Assembly: GCF_009931435.1 (NCBI RefSeq)
Contig: NZ_CP043414.1
Origin: Escherichia coli
GTDB lineage: Bacteria; Pseudomonadota; Gammaproteobacteria; Enterobacterales; Enterobacteriaceae
Reading direction: 5' to 3' (one strand)
Length of the DNA: 64,000 bases
Shown: positions 36,149 through 58,144 of the stretch, piece by piece
How the letters are laid out: each line of letters starts with the position of its first letter
Position numbering within the stretch: position 1 is the stretch's first letter
Program-made: the position numbers and the translations under genes
The notes under the pieces: generated by a model
Told to the model about the DNA's origin: nothing
Database searches by the model: none
The model's input: the letters and a program-made list of their open reading frames with translations, nothing else

Positions 36149-36266
36149 GCTGCTTTCCTTTAAAAAAACTGTTTCTAAATCGACATGGGCAGTCGTTCTG
36201 TACACTTTGTTTTGAAACGAATTGGACTGCCAACACTGCACAGTTTTCCCCCAAAAGATGAAACAT

Positions 36267-36580: not shown

Positions 36581-36627
36581 TTGTCTTATATTTCCTTATC
36601 TTTTCATATTATTATCAATAAGTTACA

Positions 36628-37224
36628 TCAGGCATCTTCTCTTTTTAATTTTTCGTTTATGAGATTATTTCTTTCCCATAATCCGGCAAAACGTGCAGCA
36701 TTACTGGCGGTATAACGCACAGTATGGCGAATATTTCGATGCCCGAGATAATCCTGAATTAAACGGGTATCTGCACCACGCTCCGCCAGTTCATAACCGC
36801 AAGCATGCCTTAACATATGAGGATGAGTCTGCGTCACGGTTCCAGCTTCAATACCGGCATCGCGAATAATGCGATAGGCCTGCTGGCGAGAAAGTCGACT
36901 CCCGCGGCGAGAAATAAATATGGCGTCGGTCTGGTCAGCGCCTTTCCAGTTAATACGTTCCTGGGTCCAGCGCTCCACAGCTTCACGCTCATCAAAACGT
37001 AACGGGTGAACGGTAGAAAATCCGTTCTTCAGTCGGCGAATATTTATTCGACCTTCGTTAAGGTCAAGATCCTGATAATGCAGATCAAGCAGTTCACTAA
37101 TACGCATCCCATGCCGATATGCCAACAAAATTAGGCAATAATCTCTGGCTCCCGTTGCCCCGTAACAAACCGCCTGCATCATGTCCTGAACTTCTTTACC
37201 GGTAAGATAACGACGTTTACTCAC
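36628..37224 (-). CDS. fimE: tyrosine recombinase, fim switch regulator (ON-to-OFF bias), 198 aa
   Basis: Phage-integrase-family ORF adjacent to fimS. Confidence 0.9.
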   Translation of the reverse strand: MSKRRYLTGKEVQDMMQAVCYGATGARDYCLILLAYRHGMRISELLDLHYQDLDLNEGRINIRRLKNGFSTVHPLRFDEREAVERWTQERINWKGADQTDAIFISRRGSRLSRQQAYRIIRDAGIEAGTVTQTHPHMLRHACGYELAERGADTRLIQDYLGHRNIRHTVRYTASNAARFAGLWERNNLINEKLKREDA

Positions 37225-37701
37225 AATAGTAGTACTCCTGACTGAGATATATTTGAATGAATACCTATAGGAAACCTCGATCGGTTAAAATTAGCCCAAT
37301 AGATAAAAAGATAACCGCACAGGAAGTTATGTGGCTATCAGTCAATTACATTAAATATCATACAAAAATAAAATATCACTGATGTGACAACATCTATTTT
37401 CATTGATTTGATTCAATATAACAATAGATTGCAGCGGATTAACTTCCAGTTGCTTAAAAAATAAAGAAAAAAGTGCAGAAACAGGAGAGCTTGAGTGATG
37501 TGTAAATTTATGAATGATTTTGTTTATTTATTTTGAAGAACATAAACCATTGTATTTTGTATGGATATGGTTAACTTAATGTTTATTATGATAATTAAGA
37601 ATCACACTTACAATAACATCAATTAATAAATAGTTAATCATTTTTGATATATCGTAAGAATAATGTATTTTTTAACACCATCCCTGGTATCTCATCTATC
37701 T

Positions 37702-38304
37702 CTATAAAACAGCGTGATGCTGTCGTCCTCTGGCTCTATCCCAGATGCCGTAAAAACGCCCTGCATTGCTGGCGGTATACCAGACAGTATGACGAATATT
37801 GCGATGCCCAAGATAATCCTGGATAAGTCGTGTATCTATTCCCATATTCGCCAAAGCAAAACCACACGAATGGCGTAACATATGCGGATGAATCTCCAGT
37901 GATAACCCAGCATTACCACCAGAAGTCGAGATAATATGGTAAAACTGTTGCCGAGAAAGCGGGTTCCCCTTACGTGATAAAAATACCCACTCGCTCTCAG
38001 CATGCGGATAAGAAGTACGTATACTCAACCAGTTTTTTAAAGCCTGAACTTCTTTGTTCAATAGCGGGTGCGTTGTTGAAAAGCCTTTTTTTAATCGATG
38101 GATATAGATACACTTTGCCTTAAGATCAATATCCGAAATCCTCAATCGGCAAATTTCACTCGCCCGGAAACCATGAATAAAACAAAGCAAAGTCAGACAA
38201 TAATTACGTGCTGCATGAGGCCCGGTATTTGCTGCTTTAAGGAGTGACTCGATTTCACTATGGGTCAGGAAGTTCCTTTTTTTGTTATCAGCCTTATTCT
38301 TCAT
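37702..38304 (-). CDS. fimB: tyrosine recombinase, fim switch regulator, 200 aa
   Basis: Paralog of fimE (HPHMLRH.CG..LA..G.DTRLIQDYLGHRNIRHTV). Confidence 0.9.
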   Translation of the reverse strand: MKNKADNKKRNFLTHSEIESLLKAANTGPHAARNYCLTLLCFIHGFRASEICRLRISDIDLKAKCIYIHRLKKGFSTTHPLLNKEVQALKNWLSIRTSYPHAESEWVFLSRKGNPLSRQQFYHIISTSGGNAGLSLEIHPHMLRHSCGFALANMGIDTRLIQDYLGHRNIRHTVWYTASNAGRFYGIWDRARGRQHHAVL

Positions 38305-39328
38305 CGTTTTCCCTTATAATTACAGACGCGCACTAGCTGTGCTGGGTTAGCAATAATCCAACATTTTAATCCTGATTATGTTTATAAAAGCGAACGTTTG
38401 CTTAATAACTAACGTAAGTGGACCAGTTCTTCTGAGTGAACTTAAATGGAGTAGCGATAGTTACTTATAATAACTTTGCCATACAAACGCCATGCTCTTG
38501 CATGCTATGTACCTTTATATATTTATCAATCTGATACGAATCTAATAATAACCCTCATCATTAATGCAACTAATCTTATCTATATATCATGTGATATGTT
38601 CTGTAACAAGTAAAATCAACATAAAAAATTCAGCAAAATTTAATATTCGTTCAACTAGCCGTCTCACATATGACATTATTAGTCAACTGCATTTGCCACA
38701 AAATGGCTATTTCATGGAACGCAGTAATTTCTTAGCGTCTATTATCATGCTAATTCTTAGGTCCCTAGCGATTATTCCTGCCTGGTTCGTCAGCTTACGC
38801 CATGAGATTGCTACATTCCTTTTTATCCTGGAGATATGGGGGAACGCAGGCGACGCTTTTTCATCTACATTCATTGGTAAATATGGCTTTGGTCACTACG
38901 TCTTAAACCTTCTTCAATCACAGCTATTCGCCGGGCGATACGGCAAACAAACTAAGTGAAGCATCATCCTGAAAACACCAATGCGTACTGAACATCAACA
39001 AGCCTCTCCTGATCGACTTCAGAAGTGACCAGTTACAAGCCACAAACCTAGAAACATATTTCATGATGAGAATTATGCTCAGCCTGATGGCGGGTAAACG
39101 CTTATTTTCACCACGCTCACTGAGTTAGCCAGCAAAGCGCCCCTTGTTTAGAGCGCAAATAAATAACATATAAAACAAATAGTTAATCAAATATCTTTGA
39201 TTTGTGAAGGCCATCATAAGTGTTCGTCTGACTTCACATGGCATCTTCTTCATAGAAAAATATAGACATATTTTGTGACACGAATTGCAAATCTGGTTTT
39301 GTTATATGGATTGTGTGATTTTTGATCT

Positions 39329-39351
39329 GGTATAACAGGTATAAAGGTGTA
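39329..39351. promoter_or_regulatory. NanR-type operator (three GGTATA-like repeats) upstream of nanC
   Basis: GGTATAACAGGTATAAAGGTGTA, about 380 bp upstream of nanC start. Confidence 0.55.
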
Positions 39352-39731
39352 CCGCAGTAGTCAATGAGACTGAGCATCTCGCAATCTATGACAAACATCA
39401 CTTCAGTCTGAAAGGAATATGAAAATGAGATCAACAGACACTCTATTTTATGACTCAGGATAAAATGGATTGAGTAAGTGATATAGCTTACGAACATTCA
39501 AATCAATTAAACATCAGAAGAGATTTTATACTCAGGTATTTAATCTGGTTCTCTGTTTATTTAAATAATGTGGAAGAGAATTTTCACAGGAGACCTTATA
39601 CAAAAAATATAAAATACAGCTACCCGTTACCAAAGACACTATAAGCCTGGCAAAAATATTACACAACATAAATGCTAATTGTTTATGCGGGCTTTGTATT
39701 GCTTTCTGTATCCTACAAATGAGTGAAATTT

Positions 39732-40448
39732 ATGAAAAAGGCTAAAATACTTTCTGGCGTATTATTACTGTGCTTTTCGTCACCATTAATTTCTCAAGCT
39801 GCGACACTGGACATACGTGGTGGATATCGTAGTGGAAGCCACGCCTATGAGACTCGACTCAAAGTCAGTGAGGGATGGCAAAATGGATGGTGGGCAAGCA
39901 TGGAAAGTAATACCTGGAATACCATTCATGATAATAAAAAGGAAAATGCCGCACTCAATGATGTTCAGGTTGAAGTTAATTACGCGATTAAACTTGATGA
40001 TCAATGGACGGTGCGCCCGGGAATGTTAACGCATTTTAGCAGCAACGGCACACGCTACGGACCCTACGTAAAACTGTCCTGGGACGCGACAAAAGATCTT
40101 AATTTTGGCATTCGCTATCGTTACGACTGGAAAGCTTACCGACAACAAGACTTATCCGGTGATATGTCTCGTGATAACGTTCATCGTTGGGATGGATATG
40201 TCACTTACCATATTAATAGTGATTTCACCTTCGCATGGCAAACGACGCTATACAGCAAACAAAACGATTATCGCTATGCAAACCATAAGAAATGGGCGAC
40301 GGAAAATGCATTTGTTCTACAATACCATATGACGCCTGATATTACGCCATACATAGAATATGACTACCTTGACCGTCAGGGTGTTTATAACGGCAGAGAT
40401 AATTTATCAGAAAACAGTTATCGCATTGGTGTGTCATTTAAACTGTAG
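39732..40448 (+). CDS. nanC: N-acetylneuraminic acid outer-membrane channel (KdgM family), 238 aa
   Basis: Signal peptide plus beta-barrel porin-like ORF; ATG 39732. Confidence 0.85.
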   Translation: MKKAKILSGVLLLCFSSPLISQAATLDIRGGYRSGSHAYETRLKVSEGWQNGWWASMESNTWNTIHDNKKENAALNDVQVEVNYAIKLDDQWTVRPGMLTHFSSNGTRYGPYVKLSWDATKDLNFGIRYRYDWKAYRQQDLSGDMSRDNVHRWDGYVTYHINSDFTFAWQTTLYSKQNDYRYANHKKWATENAFVLQYHMTPDITPYIEYDYLDRQGVYNGRDNLSENSYRIGVSFKL

Positions 40449-43593: not shown

Positions 43594-44244
43594 ATGAATA
43601 TCCGTCAATCATTACATGACCGAATCTATGCAGAATACCCTCAACAGGCTAAAGATATATTACTGTATTTCCCCACTTATGAAATTATGCCATCGACCAT
43701 AAAAATGGTTATGATTAATGAGGTGGTAGCTATAACACCGCAAGAAGATTTTTATACACCAGAGTCTGGTTATTTTACGACTGTCGCCCGACAGTTAGCG
43801 CTGGCTGGATTATCGGCAAGTAGTGGCGAAGTCTTACTCAACCATGGTATCTACCTGACCTCCGCACTGAAACTACCTAAAACACAGATCACAGCCACAC
43901 CCGCGGAGATCATTCTCTGGTCACCTATTGTAGAATGGGAGCTCGAACTCTTTGCCAATATAAAAGTTATTTTCGTTGGCGGCGATATCGCGCGAAAATG
44001 CCTTAACATCATCGCGAAAAAGCAAACACGTAAACATGCCATCCCTTCAACTCCGACGTACAAACTGATGAATAGCGAATTAGTCTGGAAAGGAATAAGC
44101 ATACTTCCTGGATATATTCTTACCGGAAAAAACCTGCTCATTGAAAAGTCAAAAATCGAAATGAATGTCGAGCAATTAAGAAAAGGAATTGCGATTTATC
44201 GCAATAGTAACAGTAACCATACGAATAATTCAGTTCATGAATAA
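43594..44244 (+). CDS. hypothetical protein (216 aa), AT-rich orphan gene
   Basis: Clean ORF in an AT-rich stretch, convergent with the helicase operon; no family recognised. Confidence 0.5.
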   Translation: MNIRQSLHDRIYAEYPQQAKDILLYFPTYEIMPSTIKMVMINEVVAITPQEDFYTPESGYFTTVARQLALAGLSASSGEVLLNHGIYLTSALKLPKTQITATPAEIILWSPIVEWELELFANIKVIFVGGDIARKCLNIIAKKQTRKHAIPSTPTYKLMNSELVWKGISILPGYILTGKNLLIEKSKIEMNVEQLRKGIAIYRNSNSNHTNNSVHE

Positions 44245-44757
44245 GAGATGAATCATTAATAACAAGAAATCACTGACAAACCACCTGTAAAAGGTCAATC
44301 ATTTTAGTTCAATTTCCTTTGTCATGATTATATTTTTATCGTCCTGACGATACTATTAACAATTACAATATTTATACCCTCCCCTGAACAAACAGAAAAG
44401 AACTCATACATTCGTTTATAATTCTGGTAATCCTGGCATCATACGTTTAAAATTTAAGGTGTTTGTTTTATAATCATGGTTCCAAAGACTATTGGTCACC
44501 AGAAAATGCCAGCCTTTTCGTGCCAGCTATATTTGTCCAGTGTGTTACCCCATCCAAAAATCATCCACATCCTGATGTTATGTTAGATATAGAGAAAACA
44601 GGTTGTACTGTGCAATATGCTAACCGCATAAGCGAATATAATTTCTAAGCTGATATTGTCTGGCTGTTGGGAGCTAAACAATATAAATATCGCCAGTTGC
44701 CAGAACGGTTATATAGACCAGGAGCGTTTCGGCTCCTGGTCTGTTTCGGACATATTA

Positions 44758-46872
44758 TTAATCAGCCACTAATAGCGGACTAGGGATACCAGATGATGAA
44801 ACAAACAGCCCTTTTACGGCACGGGTTGCAGCCACATGCAGTAACGCGCGCTCATTAAATAATGCATCACGCTGTTCAACGGGATCATCGGATGCTAATG
44901 CTTTTATTTCCGGCACAACGCCTTCGTTAATCCCCACCAGGAACACATACTGGAACTCAAGCCCTTTAATACGGTGCATCGTTGCAACTCGCACGCCTGG
45001 GCGTGCATCGCTGTCACCGCTATCATTGCCTAAATTAAATGTCTCAATTCCGGCGTCATTGAGTGCTGATGCGTAGCGGTCACAAGCATGTTTAGTACGC
45101 GCAGTAATGCAGATATCCTGAGAACGAACCTGATTCGCCAGCAATGCCTGAATTTGCTTGACGAGTGTTGCAGCCTCTTCTTTGAAATCTGCCGCATGCG
45201 TAATCATGGGCTTTTCCCCGTGCAGTAATGACAAATAATCATTACTGGTATCCGCTTCGCCATCGAGGTTATCAACCTTCACACCAGTTAACAGCCCAAC
45301 AGCAAATTGACGCGTCTCTTCTGTGGTCCGATAGTTAATCTTCAATTTTTTACTGCGACGACCACGGACGTTAATACCACACTGACCAAGAACGACCTTA
45401 TTGCGATAAATACGCTGATGCCCATCCCCGACAATAAACAGATCGTTGGGCGACTCGGGAACCAGGCTGCGAATAAGAGTAAATGCCGGGGCACCGATAT
45501 CTTGAGCTTCATCGACGACAATACTGCTATAAGGTAGTTGGACCTGCTTTTCTTTAAACAGAACAATAGCCTCATGCATGGCATCGCCCATTTCGCGCAG
45601 TTTGGCACGCGCCATTTGTGCTCTGAATTCTTCGAAAACTGGCCAGATTTTCGCCCGTTGAATACGGGATAACGCTGTACCACGTCCAACCCGGCTGACT
45701 TTGAGGTATTCCTCCCGGGTGTAAACCGCATTTGGCTGGACAACGCGTTGCCACTCTTCAGCATAGAAATTGTCAGGTAGCCCCAGTTCGGCAGGTGCCT
45801 GCTGCAAGGCATAGTTCCAGCATTTACGTCGCCCTTCATCGCTGTCGTATACCACGCGGAAATCATAACCGTGGCGTTTTAGTTGGTCGCTCATCCAGGC
45901 ATCAATGTTAACGACGTCAATACGCGCCATCTCTTCTCGCGTACACAACCGCTGGAGATTAGCGCGAATATCTGCCGCCAGGTTACGCGTAAAGGTCGTG
46001 AAAAGTACCTTCTTACCGGGTTTATCTACCAGACGCTGAGATAACCACCGCGCACGGTGCATTGCAACAACCGTTTTCCCTGTACCTGCACCGCCCAGTA
46101 CTCGTACCGGACCATTAGCGGGCGACTCCACCAGTTTTCGCTGGCTCGGGTGCAGAAATACACGCCATTTTTCTAAAGGCGCATTAAGCATCTGCAATAG
46201 TTCCTGTTCATTTTCAACGACATGGAAGCGACGTTTACTTCGTTCAATCGCCTCCATAAAGTCGTTGGTATCAACAGGCTCATCACGATGATCGTTAAAC
46301 TCTTCCAGCACTTCCTGGTAATCCAGCCCTTCTGCCAGCCAGTGCAGAGGTTCCCAGGCTTCTGCTGGCATTATGCTTTCAAGTTGATTAAGCCCGGCTT
46401 CATCGGTAAGCGCCATCACCTGATCAATAAAGACAGGCGGCACACCCAGGGCCAGAATCTGTTCCGCGCTGTAAGCTGCGAAGAGTTTCGGTTTATCAAC
46501 CACCGTTTCCGCTGCCGGTTTGATATAGCTAATATCAATGACCTGAATCGCGCCAGTAACCGGGTGAATCGAACAATCATGCCGCCGCGCCCAGTCATAT
46601 GCTTCGTCGTGTTTATCCACCCACATCAGCATATACAGAGCACCCTGTTCAGGTTTCAGAACAATGCCGCGATAAGTTTGATCGATTCGCACCGAATGGA
46701 CATTTTTACTGCGCGCATCGTGGATCTTTTCATAGTTAAGTCCATTACTGGTCGGGTCCTGACGGAATTTGGAGATGAATTCCTGCACCTTTTTTTGCTG
46801 TGCTTTTGGGATCCGCGCGAATGCGCCCAGAAAACCATCAGAAAGTGCCACCTTGGGCGTTTGCACCGTCAT
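44758..46872 (-). CDS. UvrD/Rep-like superfamily 1 helicase (704 aa), last gene of defence-like operon
   Basis: Q-motif and Walker A (LHPSQRKLV...GGAGTGKT), VVDEAQD, GDGHQRIY, YRTTEE, MHRIKGLEF; ATG overlaps upstream stop (ATGA). Confidence 0.8.
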   Translation of the reverse strand: MTVQTPKVALSDGFLGAFARIPKAQQKKVQEFISKFRQDPTSNGLNYEKIHDARSKNVHSVRIDQTYRGIVLKPEQGALYMLMWVDKHDEAYDWARRHDCSIHPVTGAIQVIDISYIKPAAETVVDKPKLFAAYSAEQILALGVPPVFIDQVMALTDEAGLNQLESIMPAEAWEPLHWLAEGLDYQEVLEEFNDHRDEPVDTNDFMEAIERSKRRFHVVENEQELLQMLNAPLEKWRVFLHPSQRKLVESPANGPVRVLGGAGTGKTVVAMHRARWLSQRLVDKPGKKVLFTTFTRNLAADIRANLQRLCTREEMARIDVVNIDAWMSDQLKRHGYDFRVVYDSDEGRRKCWNYALQQAPAELGLPDNFYAEEWQRVVQPNAVYTREEYLKVSRVGRGTALSRIQRAKIWPVFEEFRAQMARAKLREMGDAMHEAIVLFKEKQVQLPYSSIVVDEAQDIGAPAFTLIRSLVPESPNDLFIVGDGHQRIYRNKVVLGQCGINVRGRRSKKLKINYRTTEETRQFAVGLLTGVKVDNLDGEADTSNDYLSLLHGEKPMITHAADFKEEAATLVKQIQALLANQVRSQDICITARTKHACDRYASALNDAGIETFNLGNDSGDSDARPGVRVATMHRIKGLEFQYVFLVGINEGVVPEIKALASDDPVEQRDALFNERALLHVAATRAVKGLFVSSSGIPSPLLVAD

Positions 46873-49800
46873 TTGTCACCTCCGGACAGATGTTGCAATG
46901 TATTTTCGTCAATTGGCCCGAATGCAACGTGCCAACCCCTGGTTGTGAATAATGGAATAAATTCTTGATTATCAATAATCAATGCCCATTTTTGTGATGG
47001 CCAGGCGAGATCGGCTTCCGCAATAATTTCACCTTCATCATTTTGCAATTCGTAGCCGAGAGTCGGCGCAGAGAGAGAATGAGACTGAAGCAACGCGATC
47101 TCTTCAGCGCTTAATAAGCCAAACTCAATAATCTCAGCCCAACTTTCATCAGTCTCTGGTACTGCCTCTGGCGTTGCCGTAACTTTAACGTCAACGCTTT
47201 CCTGCGGTAAATGTACGGCTTTACGGCTGGTAAAGGTCATATCCGGCAGGAACTGTAACAGGTTTACCAGTCGCCAGAAGCCATTGAGTCCCGCTTCATA
47301 ACCGTCATCCTGCGTATAGCGATCGTCAAAACAGATATGCAAACGCAGCCAGCTGCGCATTTGTGCGACACTGGTCGTCGGTTTAATGGCTTGTTGTGGC
47401 AACACCGAAGCCAGCTCAATAAATTGCTGCGATGAGTTACAGCTATCGAGTAAACCACCAAAGACAAACGGTTCGTCTGGCAAAAGCTCTGCTAGCCGCC
47501 AGTCTGGCGCGTTTTCCTGCATTTCATAGGCATACTTTTGTTTCGTTCCCGCGTCCTGTGACTTCTTCACATCCAACCACACCCAGGCATGTGCAGCAGC
47601 CATTTTCTGCCATAACTGCGTTCTTCCTCCCGGCTCGGCGAGATAATCCAGCAGCAGTGCAAAACTGTTGCGTTCCCGGAACGACGCTTCAAGGGCCGCA
47701 AAGTTGGTATCGTGAAACAGGTTATAAAACTTAGGCTGTTTCATATCCGGGTTATGCCCAAGCCCCAGGACATCCTGAACATGTTTAAGCCCAGGCTCTT
47801 TGAGATCGGCCCACGTGACTGTCCACACCCAGAAATTACCGCTATCCCGAATCGCCTGGCGTTTTTGCACATCCTCTGCGACGCTATTTTTGTGAAACGC
47901 AAAGCCATCAAGGAAAATAGCTACCGGTTTAATGGCATCAGACTGCATAAGCGGATATAGCACGTAATCCGGGCGACAAGGGATCCCCACAGCCTCTTTA
48001 GCGCCTAAATCCACCTGAGCTTTAAGATGCCAGCTCATCATCGGTTCGCTGCGGGTGTTAATAATCCACCCAGCGCCCTGATGCGCGTAACTGCGACTGA
48101 CAATCAGGTTTTTATTTTCTTGCAGGCAGCTAATAAACCGTTTTTCCAGCTCACTGCCCATCATGGCTTCGAGGGAAATGTTTTTGATGGAATCAATTAC
48201 CCGTATCGAATCTCTTGCCTGCAAAATTTTCGCCAGCAAGAGACGCGCCTGATCGCGGGAGACATACTTCATGCGCCCACGGTCACGGTAAGCGTAAACG
48301 CAACGATAACAACCATCTTTATGCGTATCATGGTTGCAACTGCATTCCACTATCGCCTGATAGGCCAGTTCAAGTAATTTCAGCAAATTGTCGGGAGTGC
48401 GCATCAGCTCTTTAAGAGAACCAGTCCCCCCCGGGACGGTATCGTAAATCACCAGATACTGCCGCCAGGATTCGCCTTCATTTTCCGGCTCGCGGTACAC
48501 AACGCCTTTCAGGTGATCGACATTCCCCTTGAAGTAATGTTTAAGGCCGAGCTGGATCGCCGCCCCAAGAGAAGCCTCCACGACACGGTCATTACTGTAA
48601 CTGCTTACCGGGAGCAGAATTCGCAACGCTTCTGACTCCAGCTGGCGATAGAGATAGAGATAATCTTCGAACTTCGCCTTTTCCGGTTCCGTGCGATATT
48701 TGCAGCTCAAATCATGACGTGGTTCATGATCGCGAGGACGCTGTACCATGCCGCACCCCAGGCAAACTTTAAACCCGGTTCGCTTCTTCGCTTCTCCGGC
48801 AATCATCAACTCATTGGCATCATCCGCCATTTTGCCGAAGTTGATATCCCGCAGGGTGACTTTGCTTAAAAATTCAAAACCAAACGGAACTTCGCCTTCC
48901 TCAATCGCGTATGCCGCCGATACATCTTCTTTTTCGAAACTAACCAATAGCTGACGCTGGAAGAAAGCAGGTTCACGGCTGTCGCTCTCGTCGCTGATCT
49001 GGCTATCACGTGCGCTGGCGCGGGCATACACCTGGCGAAGTTTCAGCAGCGTGGTTTTTTGTCCGGCGTCGGCCCACCCCGGTGTGCCACATTTCGGGCA
49101 ATATTTATGCTGGTCGCCCGTCTGGTCGATATTTTCGCTGTAGTTACAGTGGCTACAGATACGCCAGTTCTCCGGCTCAGAGACCTTCAGGTCTATCTGC
49201 TCAATTTCAACTTTATGCCCACCGGCATAGAAATTATTCAGCGGAGCCAGCTCAGCCAGCGCCGTTGATGCCGGGCGTTCATATTCGAAAGTGGTGTTTT
49301 GATATTCACGCGCTTCCCCGCCTTCTTTACGCCGCCAGAGCACAGAACGTAACGTAATACCGGCTTCCGGGAAGGCGTAGTTAGGCAGCAGACCTTCATC
49401 CGTGAGGAAATTCAGCGTCTGCTTATTGTTGATTTGATTGACTAGCGCCATCAGCGCCTGCCGTTCTGAAGTTAACTCGCGCATATCGCTGTCAAAGTTT
49501 TGATCGCGCGGCGCGTTCTCCAGCTTATCGATACTGCGCTTGAGTTTATCGATGCGTGAACGCAGAGATTTGCGATCTTCCACCAGCAGTTTTAACGCCT
49601 CTTCGATACGCTGCACCAGAGAGCGTTGTCCTGGCGCGCCCTGAAGATAAGACAACAACTGTTGGCGAGTTTCTGCGGCAAGATCGGGGAAGATCGCCGT
49701 AAATTGTGCAGCAATCTCCGCATGATGCTGTTCGATATATCTCAGTAAGTTATACGGAAAACCCGATTTACGCCCGAACTCCAGCTCATCCAGCATCTGT

Positions 49801-52800
49801 TTGACGTTTTTACAGATAGCGGATTCTGGTACACCGGTTTTCACCCAGTTATCCATACAAAAAGCTGCCAGCTGGCGTTCGAGAATAGCCGTTGCATTGA
49901 GGAAGACGCCAGGAGCCTGCACCTGGCCCTGCATCATCTCCAGCGGTTCTTCAAAGAAAAACTGATCGTGCGGGTTCCCTTCTGCCACGGTAATGTTTAA
50001 CGCGTTACCATCTTTACGACCGGCGCGACCAATACGCTGCAAGTAGTTGGCCTGAGCAGGTGGGACAGAACAGAGTAAAACGGTGGAAAGATCCCCAACG
50101 TCAATACCCATCTCCAGCGTCGGTGTTGCCGACAACAGGTTGATATTCCACGGTTGGTTGCCACGGTAGAACGATTTTTCGGTGGCTTCGCGATCTTCAC
50201 GGCTAAGCAGCCCCGTGTGTTCTGCGCCCTGCACGCGCGCGATGTCCATGTTCTCCCAACGCCAGGTCGCCATATTGTCGACTTCCTGGTAACGACCTTC
50301 ACAACGTAAAGAGAGACAAGGCGCATTACGCCACTGCCAGCCTTGATCGGCCGGAGCCCGGACAACCTCACGGCAACATGAGCAATTAAGCTGAACGACG
50401 TCACGGCTCACCACCAGCGCCGAAGGCACCAGTCCCCAGGCTTCACGCCCTTTGGTGTCAAAATCTTTTACTACTCCGGCTATTTTCAACGCCGTAAACA
50501 GGCGTCGTAACACTGTTTCCGCAACGCTACTGATAAACAGATTATTGCCGTTACTCAGCGTGCGATTGATCCAATGCTGATACCAACTGGGGTTAGACTT
50601 CGCGCCAATCAGGCGATGGAAACCATTAATTTTTTCAAACGACGCATAAGCCGGTTTACGCGTTTTCGGACCGATAGAAGGCATATAGCGCGATGTACGC
50701 TCTTTTTGCGTCATCATAAAGGTCGTGCCATCACGGCGATAACTTTCGAACGCCGGATGCATAACGGCCCCGGCCTGGCGTTGATACCAGATAACCCCCA
50801 GCGCCAGGTGCGCTACCTGCTCGACGCTCACACCGGACATCTCATCACCCAGCTCTTCACAAAGCTGTTGATGCAGGGCGGTAATTGCCGGATTAAAGCG
50901 TTCTTTATCCACTCCGGCAACGGCATAACCGGTGGCTTCCAGCGTACGTCCGATACGCGCGCGCAGGGTAAATTCGCTGTACACCTCCCAGTCGAGGCGC
51001 AGGGAAACCAGCTCCGGCAGATCGGAGTTCTCCGCCAGTTTGCCTTCATTTTTCAGTGTCTGATAATCATTCAGCCACTGCATATTTGGTGCGATGAAGT
51101 TCGCTGCAAAATGAGCATCGTCCGGTGAACGTTCACGCGTTTGTTGGCAAACACGCGCCGCGAACGCATCCAGCGGTAATGTCTCTTTTTCGCCAAGAAC
51201 ACTGGCGATTTGCCCACGAATCATCAGCGGCCAGGTTCGGGCAGTAAAAAAGCTGGCACGATGCGCGGCGTCTTGTACCGAGTCAGAAAACGTAATCAGC
51301 TTTTTATGTTCGTTGAACTGGCTGCCATAAAGCTGGTGAATCATCACCGCCGACAAACTGGCAGCCCGTGACCCCAGAATCGAAATCCCCTGTTTGCTGT
51401 TGCAGTACGGGCATTCATTAGCAAACTCCAGCTCGTCCTTACGCTCTTTGAGCATATCCGGGATCAGTACCTGCAACAGTTCCGTATGACCGCAATGTCC
51501 ACACTGGACGCTGGACTGTCGGTTCAGTTTCAGACAGGTAGGGCACAGTTTCTGGTGTGCGCCACTGACCGCTTTTTCGTTGTTATCCGGGAAAGCAAGG
51601 ACGATGGAGCGCCCTTTTTCAAAGAACTGGCGATAAATGCCGTCGAGGTCTGTTTCCAGCTGAACGCTTTGCCCATGACGCAGGCTGGCCCAGCCAGTTG
51701 CGTGGCAGTCACGGCAGTGGATAACCGGCAAATAGTGTTCGCGGTCTTCCACCGCCACATCATCGGCAAACACCAGTCTCGGCGTTTTCGCCACGCTGGC
51801 GACCAGACGACGCATCTCACGAAGCCACAACTGGGAGCGCAGTTGCACAAACGGCAGCACCGGGCGCGCTTTCTTCGCCTGGAGACGTTTTTGCCGATCG
51901 TGTTCCATTTCCGGTACTTCGAGACGTGCCTGTGCGATCAGCGCCAGAATGCTTTGCAGCACGCGTCGGGCATGGTCGGCGCTTTCTGCCAGCATAACCT
52001 GGAGATTTTCCAGACACTCTCGTTCAGAGAGGATCCCGCCTTGCAGATCATGGAGTAAGACATGCATCACGCTGTGGCGGCGTAACAGTGACCCCAGCGC
52101 AATACGCTTTTCACGCCCGTCGTCGCTCTCCAGATCGTCCGGGAGTTGCAAGTCGCTGTCGGGGAACCACAAAGGGATTTGCCCGTTAAGATACGCTACC
52201 GGGGTAGCGTAACTCTGCGGGTCCAGGGCCGAAGCGACCTCCTGCCCCGGATACTGACTGTACGCAATGGCGTAATCCTGCAAGTACTCCGCTGCCGTGT
52301 AGCGATCTTCGCGAATAACGGCGTCATCGGTAAACGGCTGGTCAAAGATTGTTTTTGCGTAATCGAGCAGTTGCCCCAGTTCGTCGCCGACGGTCGCTGA
52401 TGTCCCGACACAGGCGAATCGTTGGTTATCCACACCTATGTGATGCTTCAGACGTCGCACCAGACAGGCCAGATCCGACCCTTGCGCGCCATCAAACGTA
52501 TGCAATTCATCCACGACCAGGTAGCGCAATGAACCGGGCTGGTTGTAACGCCAGAGCGGCTGATCGCCAGGGCGCATCAGCAGGTAGTCGAGCATTTTGT
52601 AGTTGGTCAACAGGATGTCCGGCGGGCTTTCGCGCAGCGTGTGCTTGCAGGTAATGACCTTTTCTGCCGACATTTTTTTGCTGGGTTCGATTTCGCTGTC
52701 GCCGACAAACAGGCCGACGGTCACCTTGCCATGCAGTTGTGGATCGCTGGCGATGGTTTTGGCGAAACGGCTGGCCTGATCGGTTGCCAGGGCGTTCATC

Positions 52801-53210
52801 GGGTAGATGATAATCGCTTTAACCCCGGCTTGTGACGCGCCCGCGCAGTGGTTGAGCAGCGGGAACATAAAACATTCTGTTTTACCGGAGCCGGTACCGG
52901 TAGCGACCAGTGTCGGCTGTGGCGCGTCGCTTCCCAGACGCTGAAATGCCCGGGCCTGATGCGCGTGCGGCGGGAACGGCAGCGTCAGATTAGGGAAAAA
53001 ATTCAGCGGTAAGTCACTTTTACGAAACGGCAACTGGGCGGAAAGGTATGGTCCTTTCAGCAGCGTTTCCGGCTGGGCCAGAAATTGCTCCAGCATTGAG
53101 ACATTATCGTTATTCTCACCGTTAAACAGCGGGCTGTTTAGCGGGAACGCCGCCCGTAAAAAGGCGGCAACGCTGTCGGCGACCTGCCGACTGACAACGG
53201 ACGGCAACAT
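46869..53210 (-). CDS. giant DExH-box helicase with Zn-ribbons, DUF1998 (MrfA-like) domain and C-terminal Vsr/DUF559-like nuclease fold (2113 aa)
   Basis: Motif I GTGSGKT (~aa 105), motif II DELH (~234), TSAT (~270), motif VI QRIGRAGR (~1057); DUF1998-type IYDTVPGGTGS...CSCNHDTHKDGCYRC (~1590-1640); RPDYV...VAIFLDGFAFH...D..KRQAIRDSGNFWVWTVTWADL (~1745-1805). Confidence 0.8.
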   Translation of the reverse strand: MLPSVVSRQVADSVAAFLRAAFPLNSPLFNGENNDNVSMLEQFLAQPETLLKGPYLSAQLPFRKSDLPLNFFPNLTLPFPPHAHQARAFQRLGSDAPQPTLVATGTGSGKTECFMFPLLNHCAGASQAGVKAIIIYPMNALATDQASRFAKTIASDPQLHGKVTVGLFVGDSEIEPSKKMSAEKVITCKHTLRESPPDILLTNYKMLDYLLMRPGDQPLWRYNQPGSLRYLVVDELHTFDGAQGSDLACLVRRLKHHIGVDNQRFACVGTSATVGDELGQLLDYAKTIFDQPFTDDAVIREDRYTAAEYLQDYAIAYSQYPGQEVASALDPQSYATPVAYLNGQIPLWFPDSDLQLPDDLESDDGREKRIALGSLLRRHSVMHVLLHDLQGGILSERECLENLQVMLAESADHARRVLQSILALIAQARLEVPEMEHDRQKRLQAKKARPVLPFVQLRSQLWLREMRRLVASVAKTPRLVFADDVAVEDREHYLPVIHCRDCHATGWASLRHGQSVQLETDLDGIYRQFFEKGRSIVLAFPDNNEKAVSGAHQKLCPTCLKLNRQSSVQCGHCGHTELLQVLIPDMLKERKDELEFANECPYCNSKQGISILGSRAASLSAVMIHQLYGSQFNEHKKLITFSDSVQDAAHRASFFTARTWPLMIRGQIASVLGEKETLPLDAFAARVCQQTRERSPDDAHFAANFIAPNMQWLNDYQTLKNEGKLAENSDLPELVSLRLDWEVYSEFTLRARIGRTLEATGYAVAGVDKERFNPAITALHQQLCEELGDEMSGVSVEQVAHLALGVIWYQRQAGAVMHPAFESYRRDGTTFMMTQKERTSRYMPSIGPKTRKPAYASFEKINGFHRLIGAKSNPSWYQHWINRTLSNGNNLFISSVAETVLRRLFTALKIAGVVKDFDTKGREAWGLVPSALVVSRDVVQLNCSCCREVVRAPADQGWQWRNAPCLSLRCEGRYQEVDNMATWRWENMDIARVQGAEHTGLLSREDREATEKSFYRGNQPWNINLLSATPTLEMGIDVGDLSTVLLCSVPPAQANYLQRIGRAGRKDGNALNITVAEGNPHDQFFFEEPLEMMQGQVQAPGVFLNATAILERQLAAFCMDNWVKTGVPESAICKNVKQMLDELEFGRKSGFPYNLLRYIEQHHAEIAAQFTAIFPDLAAETRQQLLSYLQGAPGQRSLVQRIEEALKLLVEDRKSLRSRIDKLKRSIDKLENAPRDQNFDSDMRELTSERQALMALVNQINNKQTLNFLTDEGLLPNYAFPEAGITLRSVLWRRKEGGEAREYQNTTFEYERPASTALAELAPLNNFYAGGHKVEIEQIDLKVSEPENWRICSHCNYSENIDQTGDQHKYCPKCGTPGWADAGQKTTLLKLRQVYARASARDSQISDESDSREPAFFQRQLLVSFEKEDVSAAYAIEEGEVPFGFEFLSKVTLRDINFGKMADDANELMIAGEAKKRTGFKVCLGCGMVQRPRDHEPRHDLSCKYRTEPEKAKFEDYLYLYRQLESEALRILLPVSSYSNDRVVEASLGAAIQLGLKHYFKGNVDHLKGVVYREPENEGESWRQYLVIYDTVPGGTGSLKELMRTPDNLLKLLELAYQAIVECSCNHDTHKDGCYRCVYAYRDRGRMKYVSRDQARLLLAKILQARDSIRVIDSIKNISLEAMMGSELEKRFISCLQENKNLIVSRSYAHQGAGWIINTRSEPMMSWHLKAQVDLGAKEAVGIPCRPDYVLYPLMQSDAIKPVAIFLDGFAFHKNSVAEDVQKRQAIRDSGNFWVWTVTWADLKEPGLKHVQDVLGLGHNPDMKQPKFYNLFHDTNFAALEASFRERNSFALLLDYLAEPGGRTQLWQKMAAAHAWVWLDVKKSQDAGTKQKYAYEMQENAPDWRLAELLPDEPFVFGGLLDSCNSSQQFIELASVLPQQAIKPTTSVAQMRSWLRLHICFDDRYTQDDGYEAGLNGFWRLVNLLQFLPDMTFTSRKAVHLPQESVDVKVTATPEAVPETDESWAEIIEFGLLSAEEIALLQSHSLSAPTLGYELQNDEGEIIAEADLAWPSQKWALIIDNQEFIPLFTTRGWHVAFGPIDENTLQHLSGGDK

Positions 53211-56200
53211 CAGGCGCTCTCCTTATCTTGTGCAAAGAACGCCCAGGCCACTTTGTAGTCGTCTTCGCGATCCGGCTTGATAAACGGTGCCTGCCAGGTG
53301 ACGGTACGGCGCTCGCCTTCGTCGCTGCGGGTATAGTCATCAAAGGTGACGCTGACGGTACCGGTTTGCAAATGTTTGACATCATCCCAACCGATGGCTT
53401 GATCGGTGCAGTCACCGCCGGTCCACTCCGGGCTGTCGACGTTAAAGACAAAGCCGTTTTTCAGGTCAGCTTTACGCGCGGTGCGAGGCAAGCCAACGCC
53501 CACCAACCCTTTGCTTGGGGTAAAGATGATGCGGCCGTTTTGGTCGTACCAGGTGTCCGCTTCGTACTGACGCATCACCGGGAACTGTACACGGTAAATG
53601 GTAAGCAGCTCTTCGAGGGTTAACCCCAGCGCCTGTGCCACCAGAACGTCGATTTCCACCAGCGCCTGACGACGACTGTAGTCGGAGCGTAAGGCACAGT
53701 TACGCTGCCACTCTGGGGTCAGATTGGCGAAGAAATCTTGTGGGAGCTGCGGGAGATCGCGGCTCCAGCGTTGGGTATTGAAGTCTGGGGTGTAGCAGGA
53801 TTGCCAAAGGCCAGCATATACATCATTTACAGAATTTAATGATAATACTAAGCAGTATAATAATGCCTTTTGTCTCGGATTGAATAATACGTATGAGAAA
53901 CCATCAAGCATCTGATGTAAGTTTGCCTTGCCAGTAGATTTACAAATAAAATCAAAAGGTAAAGAAAAACACATACCTGAATGTTCGAGTAACTGATTCT
54001 GTGAGCTATAGCAGTAAGAACGTACTGCGTTCATGTGACTTATTTCTGGCGGATAAATAGCACTAATTAGTGTACGTTCCCCCGATTGAGCCAACATGGC
54101 TCTGATAGCTAAGCGATAATAATCTGTTACCTTCTTCGGTTCATCTTCAGCCAGTTCAGTCCATGTAACGCATGGAGTACGTTTGGCATACTCCTGTGCA
54201 TCACAGGCTGGAATATAGTTAGTGCGCGGCAAATAGTCGTCGGGCAGAGTTAGCAAGTCTAGGTTATCGTATGCTTTATTCGTGTCACAAACCGCTCTAG
54301 GCGTATTGTAGAAAGGATTGCCAACAAAAAAATGAGGGCCAGACAAAACCCATTGTGATGCTTCTTCCGGGAACTGTGTATGTCGCTCAATTGTACCATC
54401 GCTTTGCTGATTAGTTTCATGCCACATTTCTAGAGAATAATATTGCCCCTGCAAATCACCTAATCGCCTAGGTTGTTTCGCAAACTTTTCAAGTACTGTA
54501 ACTAATTGTGTAGCATGCAACGCAGGAAGACGGGCTTCCTGGGCAGGAGTTCCGACAACATCATAAAGACGCGCAAAAAGACCCAACTGTTTTAAATTTA
54601 TAGGCACGACTCGATCGAAATGTCCCTGGAAATTCCATTTAACTTTTACTTTGCCATCGATTTCAGTTTCTTCTTTTATCCCCGGGACAATGCCTTCCCC
54701 TTTATGTTCAAAACACGCGTCAATAGTTTGAGGAATAAATAAATTTGCTATATTTGAGAATGCCACTATCTGAGAATAGGGGCCATATACATTGATGCTA
54801 AATCTAGTGTGATTATCTACTTCAGCAAATATTTTAACTTCATTGGCAAATTGAAAATGCGCCCTCAACCTCGGGTACACTGCCGCACGCAACTGCCCAC
54901 CTTTCGGGTCATCATAAATCCCTTCCGGGTGCAGGAAGCCTGCCACGCCTTTCTCTGCCCCTAAGCGCCATGCCTGCGGCAGGAAGCATTTATACAAGTT
55001 GGTCTGCACCCCGCGCAGTACCGGGTAGTTTTGCTGCGCATTGAGGAAGTTTTGCATCCCTTCACAGCCTTCATACTCGCTGCGCCAGGCCGCTTCCAGC
55101 GCTGGGATCTGGTTAAAGGTATCAACACGCAACGTTGCCAGCTTCGATGCACTCAGCTTACGCAGCACAAATTCCGGCTCGTAATCACCCAGCACGCCCG
55201 CTTCCTGCCATTCCACTTTTAGCCACGGCGGGTTTCCGAGCATCAGGTCAAAACCGCCGCGCTCGGCAAACAAGTCGCAGAACTCCAGATCCCAGTGGAA
55301 GAAACGGTGCTGCTTTCTCAGGGCATCGACAATCGCCAGACGCGGCAAATGGCGGAACAGCACATCGGTTTTCAGACGACCAGCAACGGAAAACAGCGAA
55401 GACTCTTCTCGCAGCAGGCCTTCTTCGGCAAACAGATCGCCAGTGGTGTGATCCGCAACTTCAGTGACTTTTTCCGTGATTACAATCCCGTCGAGCAGGG
55501 TTTCAATCTCAAACAACCAGGTACCGCGATCCGGTAGCTCATCAGCTTTGTCGATCGGCCAGAACCACAGCGCGCACCAGTAGTCCATCACCCAACGCAG
55601 CTTCTGGTAGGCGCTGTTATCTTCAAGACGACCGCTAAAGGTTTCATCTTTACTGCTCAGCGAAGAACGTGTCTGCTCGCTGTTTTCTGCCGGCCACACC
55701 GGGTAGCTGTCGGCGGTTTTCAGACGTTCTGCTTTAAGTTGCTGGCGATAGGTGTTCCACAGTGCTTCCACCTTTTCGCTGATACGCTGCACATCAGCAA
55801 TCTCATGCCCGGCAAAGCTTTTAATAAACTCTTTGCGCCAGCTGTCCAGCGCTTTGAAGTCATCCGGATAACGCTGCTTAACAGTTTTATCGCTGTAATT
55901 AGCCATACCGCCGTCGGGCAGCAGGAAGTGGAAAATCTGCGTCTCTTCACGCGGCGTGTTCATCGCCAGTTCGACCGGCTCGCTGTTAAGCCAGCTCGGA
56001 TCTTTGACTTTTTTGTAGGTCAGTTCGCTCTTGTTGAACACCTGACGGCGCGCGCCCACCAGCGAGTTACCGCAGTGCAGCTGGTAACCAAACCACGGTA
56101 CAAAGGCATCGCCACTGATGGCGTTCAGCCACAGTGACACTTCCGCCAGCTCCACCGCCACCGGGTTTAAGTCCACGCCGAAAACGTTGTTGTCGGCAAT

Positions 56201-58144: not shown

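What the first reader, a model, noticed from the sequence alone, without database searches (positions are those of the whole stretch)
53210..58144. 1644-aa adenine methyltransferase unusually large for its family, with long flanking regions
Motif I-like CEPAMGSAAFL (~aa 600) and catalytic GNPPW (~aa 970) are separated by about 370 aa. Roughly 600 aa precede and 650 aa follow the methylase core, suggesting embedded target-recognition or partner-interaction domains. A genome carrying this gene should show a distinctive m6A motif.
Basis: partly seen in the sequence, partly recalled or inferred. Interest (0 to 1): 0.6.

Follow-up and report, generated by a model that had tools for sequence, protein, structure and literature searches.

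The report
ArmB methylase of ARMADA II defence
The 1644-aa gene is real, but it is already described: it is ArmB, the BREX-PglX-like adenine methyltransferase subunit of the four-gene ARMADA type II anti-phage system of E. coli, and its large size is normal for that family.

Summary
The ORF (53210-58144, minus strand, 1644 aa) and both motifs (CEPAMGSAAFL at aa 600, GNPPW at aa 970) are confirmed. It is not an orphan oversized methylase. It is the second gene of a translationally coupled operon: SNF2 helicase, methylase, 2113-aa YprA/DUF1998 helicase, UvrD-like helicase. The operon lies next to Druantia III. Its other three proteins are 99.4-99.9% identical to E. coli O157:H7 O-island 172, published in 2025 as ARMADA type II (armABCD). 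In that work ArmB N971A abolished phage defence and G605A weakened it.

Structure prediction (pLDDT 87 and 94) gives a PglX/BrxX- and type IIL-like architecture:
- a nuclease-like N-terminal domain that lacks the catalytic residues;
- a helical region;
- a gamma-class N6-adenine methylase core split by a roughly 200-240-aa family-conserved insertion;
- a TaqI/HsdS-like recognition domain;
- a conserved C-terminal domain.

Lengths of 1500-1750 aa are the family norm.

Added here: nearly all allelic variation lies in two cassettes (aa ~1100-1300 and ~1330-1465) that reassort among alleles. This window differs from O157 essentially by a swapped first cassette (dS 1.5 against 0.1-0.17 in the flanks).

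The parts
58147..61005 (-). armA: 952-aa SNF2/RapA-type (DrmD/BrxHII-like) helicase, first gene of the operon
   Evidence: PADLOC DrmD E=1.4e-99 and BrxHII E=9.4e-60. NCBIfam DISARM_DrmD scores 349.7 bits, below its 610 cut-off. 99.9% aa identity to the O157:H7 homologue. Its TAA stop lies 2 nt before the armB ATG.
53210..58144 (-). armB: the 1644-aa PglX-like N6-adenine methyltransferase of the finding
   Evidence: ORF and translation. PADLOC REase_MTase_IIG PDLC03614 E=4.5e-287 over nearly the full length, with weaker DrmMI hits. Weak, split Pfam Eco57I/MmeI_Mtase hits. Fold matches to BrxX/PglX, DrdV and MmeI. The exact sequence is already in public E. coli records. Named ArmB in bioRxiv 10.1101/2025.09.15.676423.
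57395..58144 (-). ArmB aa 1-250: N-terminal alpha/beta domain, nuclease-like but probably catalytically dead
   Evidence: The aa 1-1150 model aligns over about 980 columns with BrxX/PglX and about 1110 with DrdV, so the match includes their N-terminal domains. At the would-be PD...ExK positions the query has P121-V and E139-A-H141. Position 141 is P/L/Q/V in homologues and never a conserved K; D130 is poorly conserved. The strand-by-strand mapping is my inference from secondary structure.
56462..56476 (-). Motif X (S557-Y-Y-T-P561), start of the gamma-class methylase core
   Evidence: Y559 and P561 are invariant; S557, Y558 and T560 are at least 90% conserved in 75 family members.
56315..56347 (-). 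Motif I / SAM-binding loop CEPAMGSAAFL (aa 600-610)
   Evidence: Position confirmed. A603 and G605 are invariant. G605A partly reduces defence in the O157 orthologue.
55310..56032 (-). ArmB aa ~705-945: family-conserved, mostly helical insertion between motif III and motif IV
   Evidence: Split Pfam Eco57I match. The model shows helices 753-885 (pLDDT mostly >90) and a low-confidence hairpin at 891-914. W856 and P871 are invariant and the MDYWCALWFWP block is conserved.
55223..55237 (-). Motif IV, GNPPW (aa 970-974), the catalytic adenine pocket
   Evidence: Position confirmed. G970-N971-P972-P973-W974 are all invariant. N971A abolishes defence in the O157 orthologue.
54245..54847 (-). Hypervariable cassette V1 (aa ~1100-1300), first part of the target-recognition region
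   Evidence: Among 120 close alleles, mean identity to the query per 20-aa block falls to 0.40-0.82 here, against 0.97-1.0 in most blocks of aa 1-1090 (lowest 0.92). 13 types at 90% identity. 75 of the 87 differences from O157 ArmB fall here. dS=1.53 and dN=0.29 against flank dS of 0.10-0.17.
53750..54157 (-). Hypervariable cassette V2 (aa ~1330-1465), second part of the target-recognition region
   Evidence: Mean identity to the query per 20-aa block of 0.25-0.73 among close alleles. 15 types that assort semi-independently of V1, giving 31 combinations in 121 sequences. In this window it is essentially the O157 type, with one substitution.
53213..53737 (-). ArmB aa 1470-1644: conserved C-terminal domain, with the RRQALVEIDVLVAxALGLTLxEL helix typical of TaqI/type IIG C-termini
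   Evidence: About 97% identical across alleles. R1491, D1499, L1513 and G1537 are invariant. pLDDT >90. The comparison of the helix motif with TaqI/type IIG C-termini is from my own knowledge and was not tested.
46869..53210 (-). armC: 2113-aa YprA-family DEAD/DEAH helicase with a DUF1998/MZB domain and a C-terminal nuclease region
   Evidence: PADLOC DruE models E=4e-104 to 1e-60; ZorE-like match at aa 2021-2096. Pfam MZB at aa ~1549-1638. Its ATG overlaps the armB TGA. 99.4% identical to O157. The Vsr-type nuclease assignment comes from the paper and was not reproduced here.
44758..46872 (-). armD: 704-aa UvrD/GajB-like helicase with an extra N-terminal ~240 aa
   Evidence: PADLOC GajB E=2.7e-36. 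Pfam UvrD-helicase/UvrD_C at aa 241-693. The N-terminus has no PDB sequence match; the paper calls it RelE-like. 4-nt overlap with the armC stop, from the coordinates.
61229..64000 (-). C-terminal ~920 codons of druE (Druantia type III helicase-nuclease), running off the window end
   Evidence: PADLOC DruE3 E=6.4e-216, matching profile positions 1218-2051 of 2055. The frame is open to the window edge. 98.5% identical to the O157 gene.
61097..61197 (-). druE-armA intergenic region with a terminator-like hairpin (61197-61183) and a promoter-like site (61124-61097)
   Evidence: Consensus scan only; sequence read. This is weak evidence.

Best explanation
The gene is armB, the methyltransferase and specificity subunit of an ARMADA type II anti-phage system (armA-armB-armC-armD). 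The system sits beside Druantia III at the E. coli chromosomal site known in O157:H7 as O-island 172.

ArmB is a single-chain, PglX/type IIL-like protein with five parts:
- a degenerate nuclease-like N-terminal domain;
- a helical region;
- a gamma-class N6-adenine methylase core (motif X at 557, motif I at 600, NPPW at 971) carrying a family-specific helical insertion;
- a recognition domain made of two exchangeable hypervariable cassettes;
- a conserved C-terminal domain.

Most likely mechanism (inferred, BREX-like logic):
1. ArmB reads a short asymmetric DNA motif through the variable cassettes and flips its adenine into the NPPW pocket.
2. It methylates host copies of the motif as a self-mark.
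3. On unmethylated phage DNA it serves as the sequence sensor. That licenses the SNF2 motor ArmA, the YprA helicase-nuclease ArmC and the UvrD-like ArmD to attack or block the DNA.
4. Cassette exchange by recombination changes the motif between strains.

Shown: identity, operon, fold, motif conservation, the location and recombinational origin of the variation, and (from the literature) the requirement of N971 and of all four genes for defence.

Inferred: actual methyl transfer, the motif, and the sensor role.
For: Operon and identity:
- Four co-directional, overlapping or abutting genes.
- Family assignments from PADLOC, NCBIfam and Pfam.
- ArmA, ArmC and ArmD are 99.9, 99.4 and 99.7% identical, and ArmB 94.7% identical, to the O157:H7 locus.
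- The same flanking genes, nanC/nanM and druE.

Literature:
- ARMADA II is defined with exactly this gene order. The cloned O157:H7 system protects against 13 of 80 phages. Deleting any one gene abolishes protection. ArmB N971A abolishes defence and G605A partly reduces it. Defence is non-abortive.
- The EDL933 armB deletion mutant loses defence but grows normally without phage.
- Glucosyl-hmC T-even phages escape.
- armB is the most variable gene of the island.

Fold:
- aa 1-1150 (pLDDT 87) matches BrxX/PglX best, then DrdV, BsaXI, MmeI and LlaBIII.

Variation:
- It is confined to aa ~1100-1300 and ~1330-1465, starting where the Eco57I catalytic model ends.
- There are 13 x 15 types in 31 combinations.
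- The window differs from O157 by a V1 swap, with saturated dS there.

Family context: an SNF2 gene lies immediately upstream in both distant homologues examined.
Against: - No methylation motif has been reported for any ArmB in the library I could search. Methyl transfer is therefore unproven.
- G605A, in the SAM-binding loop, causes only partial loss of defence. Methylation may not be strictly required for restriction.
- Motif I reads GSA rather than the usual GxG.
- NCBIfam PglX models score far below their cut-offs: 27.5 against 900 bits, and 25.1 against 500.
- Fold-search TM-scores are low (0.2-0.5) because the domain orientations differ.
- The cassettes were mapped to a DNA-contacting role by homology and variability, not by a complex structure.
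- The 120 alleles are 90%-identity cluster representatives, so type counts are not population frequencies.
Confidence: 0.72

Rival explanations
1. A stand-alone type IIG/IIL restriction-modification enzyme, like MmeI or DrdV. One polypeptide both cuts with its N-terminal PD-(D/E)xK domain and methylates, and the neighbouring helicases are unrelated.
For: The best PADLOC model is REase_MTase_IIG PDLC03614, at E=4.5e-287 and nearly full length. The aa 1-1150 model aligns over about 1100 columns with the type IIL enzyme DrdV, and also with MmeI and BsaXI.
Against: The nuclease catalytic positions are not conserved. The 'PD' aspartate is V/L/I, and the 'ExK' lysine position is H here and P/L/Q/V in homologues. 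The gene is translationally coupled to its neighbours. An SNF2 gene precedes distant homologues too. Deleting any of the four genes abolishes defence.
Confidence: 0.04
2. ArmB is mainly a sequence sensor rather than a self-marking methylase. The NPPW pocket flips and inspects adenine in a target motif to trigger the helicase-nuclease partners. Host protection comes from something other than ArmB methylation.
For: N971A abolishes defence, whereas the SAM-loop mutant G605A only weakens it. Loss of armB is not toxic. No ArmB-attributable motif has been reported. Motif I is atypical, GSA.
Against: All SAM-binding and catalytic motifs are invariant across 75 diverse homologues, which suggests selection for catalysis. 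The closest structural relatives, PglX/BrxX, are methyltransferases; from my own knowledge, PglX both methylates host DNA and is needed for BREX defence. A single G-to-A change may not abolish SAM binding. Ancient, discrete specificity cassettes are the pattern I would expect of modification specificities, which is also an argument from general knowledge.
Confidence: 0.15
3. A class I DISARM methylase (DrmMI); that is, the locus is simply a DISARM variant.
For: PADLOC DrmMI models hit at E=3.4e-57 to 1e-13, and ArmA hits DrmD. NCBIfam DISARM_DrmD gives a partial score. The literature calls ARMADA DISARM-related.
Against: The DrmMI hits are local: the best stretch covers only aa 538-700. DrmD scores 349.7 bits against a 610 cut-off. 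There are no separate DrmA and DrmB genes and no PLD DrmC. Instead there is one fused YprA helicase carrying MZB, plus an extra UvrD-like gene. Phylogenetically, ArmC groups with Druantia DruE rather than DrmA.
Confidence: 0.05

Closest known systems
ArmB of ARMADA type II (E. coli O157:H7 NCTC 12900 / EDL933 z5900; Bell et al. bioRxiv 10.1101/2025.09.15.676423; Li et al. bioRxiv 10.1101/2025.09.22.677730)
   Same: Same gene, same operon order, same chromosomal neighbourhood, same length (1644 aa) and the same G605 and N971 numbering. 94.7% aa identity, with partner proteins 99.4-99.9% identical.
   Different: The first hypervariable cassette (aa ~1100-1300) is a different, anciently diverged type: 75 substitutions and dS of 1.5. 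I therefore predict a partly different recognition sequence. This exact allele is itself already present in public E. coli records.
BREX PglX/BrxX (PDB 8C45, 8Q56, 9EWZ)
   Same: Best overall fold match over N-terminal domain, helical region, methylase and recognition domain. Both are gamma-class NPPY/W adenine methylases. In ARMADA the methylase is required for defence and its loss is not toxic; that the same holds for PglX in BREX is from my own knowledge.
   Different: About 10% sequence identity. NCBIfam PglX models score far below their cut-offs. ArmB is about 400 aa longer. The operon has no PglZ, BrxC or BrxL; the partners are SNF2, YprA and UvrD helicases.
Type IIL/IIG restriction-modification enzymes (DrdV 7LO5, MmeI 5HR4; PADLOC REase_MTase_IIG)
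   Same: Same domain order, nuclease-like N-terminus then methylase then recognition domain, in one chain.
   Different: The nuclease catalytic residues are not conserved. ArmB needs three helicase partners. It is about 600-700 aa longer.
DISARM class I DrmMI
   Same: An adenine methylase paired with an SNF2 helicase (DrmD/ArmA) and a DUF1998-bearing helicase.
   Different: Only local profile matches. ARMADA has a fused YprA helicase-nuclease in place of DrmA, DrmB and PLD DrmC, plus ArmD.
Type I HsdS specificity subunits
   Different: The two ArmB modules show no detectable homology to each other (hhalign probability 0.1%). They are fused to the methylase in one chain. No local inverted repeats or silent cassettes exist that could drive phase variation.

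Membership tests
ARMADA type II (ArmB) | Strict gene order: BrxHII/RapA-like SNF2 helicase, PglX-like methylase, YprA-like helicase, GajB-like UvrD helicase | tested here: met
   ORFs 58147-61005, 53210-58144, 46869-53210 and 44758-46872 all lie on the minus strand and abut or overlap. Family hits.
ARMADA type II (ArmB) | Methylase with a SAM-loop glycine (G605) and an NPPW motif (N971) | tested here: met
   Motifs at aa 600 and 970, invariant in 75 homologues, with the same residue numbers as the published mutants.
ARMADA type II (ArmB) | ArmC is a YprA-family helicase with DUF1998/MZB and a C-terminal Vsr-type nuclease | tested here: inconclusive
   Helicase and MZB are confirmed. No Pfam nuclease hit was found in the last 900 aa. 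Only a ZorE-like match at aa 2021-2096 was seen. The Vsr assignment rests on the paper.
ARMADA type II (ArmB) | ArmD carries an N-terminal RelE-like domain | tested here: inconclusive
   UvrD core at aa 241-693. The N-terminal 240 aa give no Pfam or PDB sequence match. No structure was predicted for it.
ARMADA type II (ArmB) | Orthology to the experimentally validated system | tested here: met
   99.4-99.9% aa identity for ArmA, ArmC and ArmD, and 94.7% for ArmB, against the O157:H7 locus.
ARMADA type II (ArmB) | Confers phage resistance | not testable with these tools
   Shown for the O157:H7 and ATCC 8739 systems in the literature, not for this allele.
Gamma-class N6-adenine DNA methyltransferase | Motif order X, I, IV, followed by a C-terminal recognition domain on a Rossmann fold | tested here: met
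   SYYTP at 557, GSA loop at 605 and NPPW at 971. Fold matches to M.TaqI, CamA, M.BseCI and HsdM.
Gamma-class N6-adenine DNA methyltransferase | Transfers methyl to adenine N6 in a defined motif | not testable with these tools
   No methylome data were found for an intact armB.
BREX PglX | Passes the curated PglX family model | tested here: not met
   NF033455 scores 27.5 bits against a 900 cut-off; NF033452 scores 25.1 against 500.
BREX PglX | Encoded with PglZ, BrxC and other BREX genes | tested here: not met
   The operon neighbours are SNF2, YprA and UvrD helicases and DruE.
BREX PglX | Overall fold and domain order | tested here: met
Type IIG/IIL restriction-modification enzyme | Active N-terminal PD-(D/E)xK nuclease motif | tested here: not met
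   The positions equivalent to PD and ExK are P121-V and E139-A-H141. The lysine position is not conserved in the family.
Type IIG/IIL restriction-modification enzyme | Functions as a single polypeptide | tested here: not met
   Conserved operon coupling. All four genes are required for defence (literature).
DISARM class I DrmMI | Accompanied by separate DrmA and DrmB and (usually) a PLD DrmC | tested here: not met
   One fused 2113-aa helicase carries MZB, and no PLD gene is present. DrmD scores below its cut-off.

The most novel reading that the evidence does not exclude
ArmB may be primarily a programmable DNA-sequence sensor. Two independently exchangeable cassettes (13 x 15 types seen) would set what DNA the ARMADA helicase-nuclease machine attacks, and adenine flipping into the NPPW pocket, rather than methyl transfer, would be the essential step. 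Host self-protection would then be only partly epigenetic, or not epigenetic at all. This would be a mode distinct from classical restriction-modification, and possibly from BREX.
Probability: 0.15. Interest if true: 0.65.

Novelty: already known. Interest (0 to 1): 0.3.

Why it matters
ARMADA II is reported to be the dominant phage-resistance determinant of EHEC O157:H7, and it acts synergistically with Druantia III. Its mechanism is still open.

The methylase is the only component that varies between strains. Here that variation is localised to two ancient cassettes, swapped by recombination, directly after the catalytic domain. This gives a concrete and testable handle:
- determine the m6A motif for a few V1/V2 combinations;
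- ask whether motif content in phage genomes predicts which phages each strain restricts.

That question bears on phage-therapy design against EHEC. For the genome scan itself the finding is ordinary, because it rediscovers a system described in 2025.

Tried and rejected
1. Sequence searches of the PDB found nothing usable. I tried the whole protein, a 75-sequence profile and the two core segments. The best result was DrdV at E=0.028, so residue-level mapping of motifs I and IV onto PglX or MmeI was not possible.

2. I considered the published O145:H28 SMRT methylome as a test of the m6A prediction. It reports only GATC and CTGCAG plus 126-191 unassigned sites. I set it aside. The three O145 genomes listed show armB annotated as fragments, and in the one I examined (12E115) a frameshift at about codon 1208 is confirmed. 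I did not check RM13514 or RM13516 themselves.

3. Searches for an O157:H7 or ARMADA methylome paper found none.

4. I tested whether V1 and V2 are tandem duplicates of one recognition fold, as in HsdS. hhalign gave 0.1% probability, so this is not supported.

5. I looked for a shufflon or phase-variation mechanism. There are no inverted repeats or silent cassettes in 44000-64000.

6. I first suspected that druE in the window was a truncated pseudogene, because the ORF list starts it at 63802. The frame is in fact open to the window edge.

7. ArmD's N-terminal RelE-like domain and ArmC's Vsr nuclease could not be confirmed with Pfam or PDB sequence searches.
Full report
**1. The observation.** The ORF is exactly as described: 53210-58144 on the minus strand, ATG start, 1644 codons. 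CEPAMGSAAFL begins at residue 600 and GNPPW at residue 970. A good Shine-Dalgarno sequence (GGAGCGGAGGG) precedes the ATG. That ATG lies 2 nt after the stop of the upstream gene, and the TGA stop overlaps the ATG of the downstream gene. The gene is therefore real and is embedded in an operon.

**2. What surrounds it.** Five large co-directional genes fill 44758-64000.
- 61229-64000 is the C-terminal part of a Druantia III DruE helicase-nuclease (PADLOC DruE3, E=6e-216). Its frame is open to the window edge.
- 58147-61005 encodes a 952-aa SNF2/DrmD/BrxHII-like helicase.
- 53210-58144 is the methylase.
- 46869-53210 encodes a 2113-aa DEAD/DEAH helicase that matches DruE profiles and carries the MrfA Zn-binding (DUF1998) domain at about aa 1549-1638.
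- 44758-46872 encodes a 704-aa UvrD/GajB-like helicase with an extra N-terminal 240 aa.

Further along the window lie nanM, a nanC-like porin, gntP and a fim-type fimbrial operon. This is an E. coli chromosomal context.

**3. It is a described system.**
- The DNA matches 525 of 5426 complete E. coli genomes.
- In O157:H7 the annotated locus runs nanC, nanM, UvrD-helicase, DEAD/DEAH helicase, class I SAM-dependent DNA methyltransferase, DEAD/DEAH helicase, DruE, DruH (STY4851/ECs_5259 family), Zorya II.
- Two 2025 preprints name the four genes armABCD, ARMADA type II, on O-island 172.
- Bell et al. define ARMADA II by this strict gene order. They show that the cloned O157:H7 system protects against 13 of 80 phages by a direct, non-abortive mechanism. 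Deleting any one gene abolishes protection. ArmB N971A abolishes defence, and G605A partly reduces it.
- Li et al. show that the EDL933 armB deletion mutant loses defence but grows normally without phage. They also report that armB is the most variable gene of the island and that hypermodified T-even phages escape.
- The window's ArmA, ArmC and ArmD are 99.9, 99.4 and 99.7% identical to the O157:H7 proteins, and ArmB is 94.7% identical.
- The exact ArmB sequence is already in public E. coli records.

**4. Anatomy of the protein.** Curated profiles see little.
- Pfam gives only weak, split Eco57I/MmeI_Mtase hits.
- NCBIfam PglX models score far below their cut-offs.
- No PDB sequence is detectable.
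- PADLOC's REBASE-derived model REase_MTase_IIG PDLC03614, however, matches nearly end to end (E=4.5e-287).

An exhaustive search shows a large family: 1294 50%-identity clusters at E<=1e-30. Most full-length members among the best 150 are 1500-1750 aa, so the size is the family norm.

In a 75-sequence alignment the invariant residues include Y559 and P561 (motif X), A603 and G605 (motif I), G656, D658 and N660, and G970-N971-P972-P973-W974 (motif IV). W856 and P871, inside the gap between the motifs, are also invariant, as are several C-terminal residues.

AlphaFold models built on that alignment are confident: aa 1-1150 has pLDDT 87 and aa 941-1644 has pLDDT 94.4.
Next come the type IIL enzyme DrdV (about 1100 columns), BsaXI, MmeI and LlaBIII.

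The resulting parse is:
- aa 1-250: an alpha/beta domain that I read as nuclease-like;
- aa 250-540: a mainly helical region with the conserved LGxxYE block;
- aa 540-1110: the Rossmann methylase, interrupted at about aa 705-945 by a conserved helical insertion plus a floppy hairpin (891-914);
- aa 1100-1465: the recognition region;
- aa 1470-1644: a conserved C-terminal domain.

Pfam model positions 25 to 49 correspond to aa 738 to 939.

**5. The N-terminal domain is probably not an active nuclease.** I mapped the canonical PD...(D/E)xK pattern onto the predicted strands. The 'PD' position is P121 followed by V/L/I. The '(D/E)xK' position is E139-A-H141, and position 141 is P/L/Q/V/T in homologues. 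D130 is poorly conserved. This argues against the PADLOC 'type IIG restriction enzyme' label. It agrees with the genetic requirement for the helicase partners, of which ArmC is reported to carry the active nuclease. A conserved D213-R-x-K216-W217 motif remains unexplained.

**6. New here: where the variability lies.** I aligned the 120 closest database clusters (88-95% identical; E. coli, Klebsiella, Salmonella, Serratia, Cronobacter).
- Most 20-aa blocks of aa 1-1090 and 1470-1644 are 97-100% identical to the query (lowest 0.92).
- aa 1100-1300 (V1) falls to 40-82% and aa 1330-1465 (V2) to 25-73%.
- A conserved island sits between them at about aa 1301-1320.
- At 90% identity there are 13 V1 types and 15 V2 types, in 31 combinations among 121 sequences. 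For example, one V1 type occurs with six V2 types.
- V1 begins just where the catalytic-domain model ends.
- Across distant homologues this region is as conserved as the rest of the protein. The scaffold is therefore kept while specificity-type residues are exchanged.
- Against the O157:H7 allele, 75 of the window's 87 substitutions fall in aa 1101-1300, and V2 is essentially identical.
- In that segment dS is 1.53 and dN 0.29. The flanks have dS of 0.10-0.17 and dN of 0.004-0.005. This is the signature of an old allele brought in by recombination, not of recent point mutation.
- There are no local inverted repeats or silent cassettes, so this is not a phase-variable shufflon.
- V1 and V2 are not detectably homologous to each other.

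The pattern is what is known for type I HsdS and for PglX specificity regions. I take it as strong indirect evidence that these cassettes set the DNA sequence that ArmB reads.

**7. Mechanism.** The best-supported model follows BREX-like logic.
- ArmB recognises a short asymmetric motif and methylates host copies at adenine N6.
- It is also required as the sequence reader for restriction, which the ArmA, ArmC and ArmD motors and nuclease carry out.
- This fits several facts. Loss of armB abolishes defence yet is harmless to the cell. N971 is essential. The catalytic motifs are invariant. DNA-hypermodified phages escape.

Methyl transfer and the motif are inferred, not shown. The partial phenotype of G605A, and the absence of any reported ArmB motif, keep a 'sensor without self-marking' rival alive at about 0.15.

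**8. The m6A prediction.** I found no methylome for a strain with intact armB. The O145:H28 SMRT methylomes show only Dam, a prophage PstI-like methylase, and 126-191 unassigned sites. All three O145 genomes listed show armB split into fragments. In the one I examined, strain 12E115, a frameshift at about codon 1208 is confirmed. I did not check the two strains used for the methylome.

**9. Verdict.** The operon context was missed, and 'unusually large' is the norm for this family. The system was published in 2025, so the finding is already known. The cassette analysis adds a testable detail to a system whose mechanism is unresolved. Interest is 0.3.

Noticed in passing
window 61229-64000 (-): The C-terminal ~920 codons of a Druantia type III druE lie directly upstream of armA and run off the window. 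The ORF lister starts the gene at an internal ATG (63802), but the frame is open to the window edge. ARMADA II and Druantia III are reported to act synergistically.
   Followed up: partly
L002 3501-8409 (E. coli O145:H28 12E115); hits H84-H86: armB carries a frameshift at about codon 1208, inside cassette V1, in strain 12E115. It is annotated as two or three 'hypothetical protein' fragments in all three O145 genomes listed. ARMADA II may therefore be non-functional in that lineage, even though the lineage is counted as carrying the island.
   Followed up: partly
L001 22020-28334 (E. coli O157:H7 LSU61): druE is annotated as a pseudogene with an internal stop in this O157:H7 strain. The window's copy shows no stop in the part that is visible.
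   Followed up: no
L003 15084-20042: In the context of a 59%-identical ArmB homologue, a 1652-aa gene (Pfam SACS + NOV_C) is inserted between the methylase and the YprA helicase. A DruH/DruE pair again lies upstream. This may be an ARMADA II variant with a fifth component.
   Followed up: no
(plasmid records, e.g. NZ_CP080067.1, NZ_CP031815.1): armB-armC also occur on E. coli and Klebsiella plasmids: 16 plasmid places among the complete E. coli genomes, and 17 PLSDB records, several of them conjugative. These copies match the query in two or three pieces covering 78-94% of it, which suggests different cassette types.
   Followed up: no
ArmB aa 213-217 (window ~57494-57508): A D-R-x-K-W motif is conserved across the family in the otherwise degenerate nuclease-like N-terminal domain (D/E in 59 of 71, K in 57 of 71, W in 63 of 71). 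Its role is unknown.
   Followed up: partly
window 43594-44757: A 216-aa ORF with no NCBIfam match lies between nanM/nanS and armD, flanked by AT-rich spacer. In O157:H7 the equivalent position holds a frameshifted transposase remnant, which may mark the island boundary.
   Followed up: no
window 7771-9861, 12419-17659, 22001-24000, 36001-40000: Several low-GC stretches (36-39% against about 50% elsewhere). They include a 696-aa pentapeptide-repeat protein resembling PipB-type effectors. A 1746-aa IatC/intimin-like inverse autotransporter lies nearby. These are probably other horizontally acquired loci.
   Followed up: no
armB outside V1, window against O157:H7: Synonymous divergence in the conserved parts of armB is fairly high (dS 0.10-0.17), while dN is only 0.004-0.005. 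This indicates strong purifying selection on the non-cassette parts.
   Followed up: no
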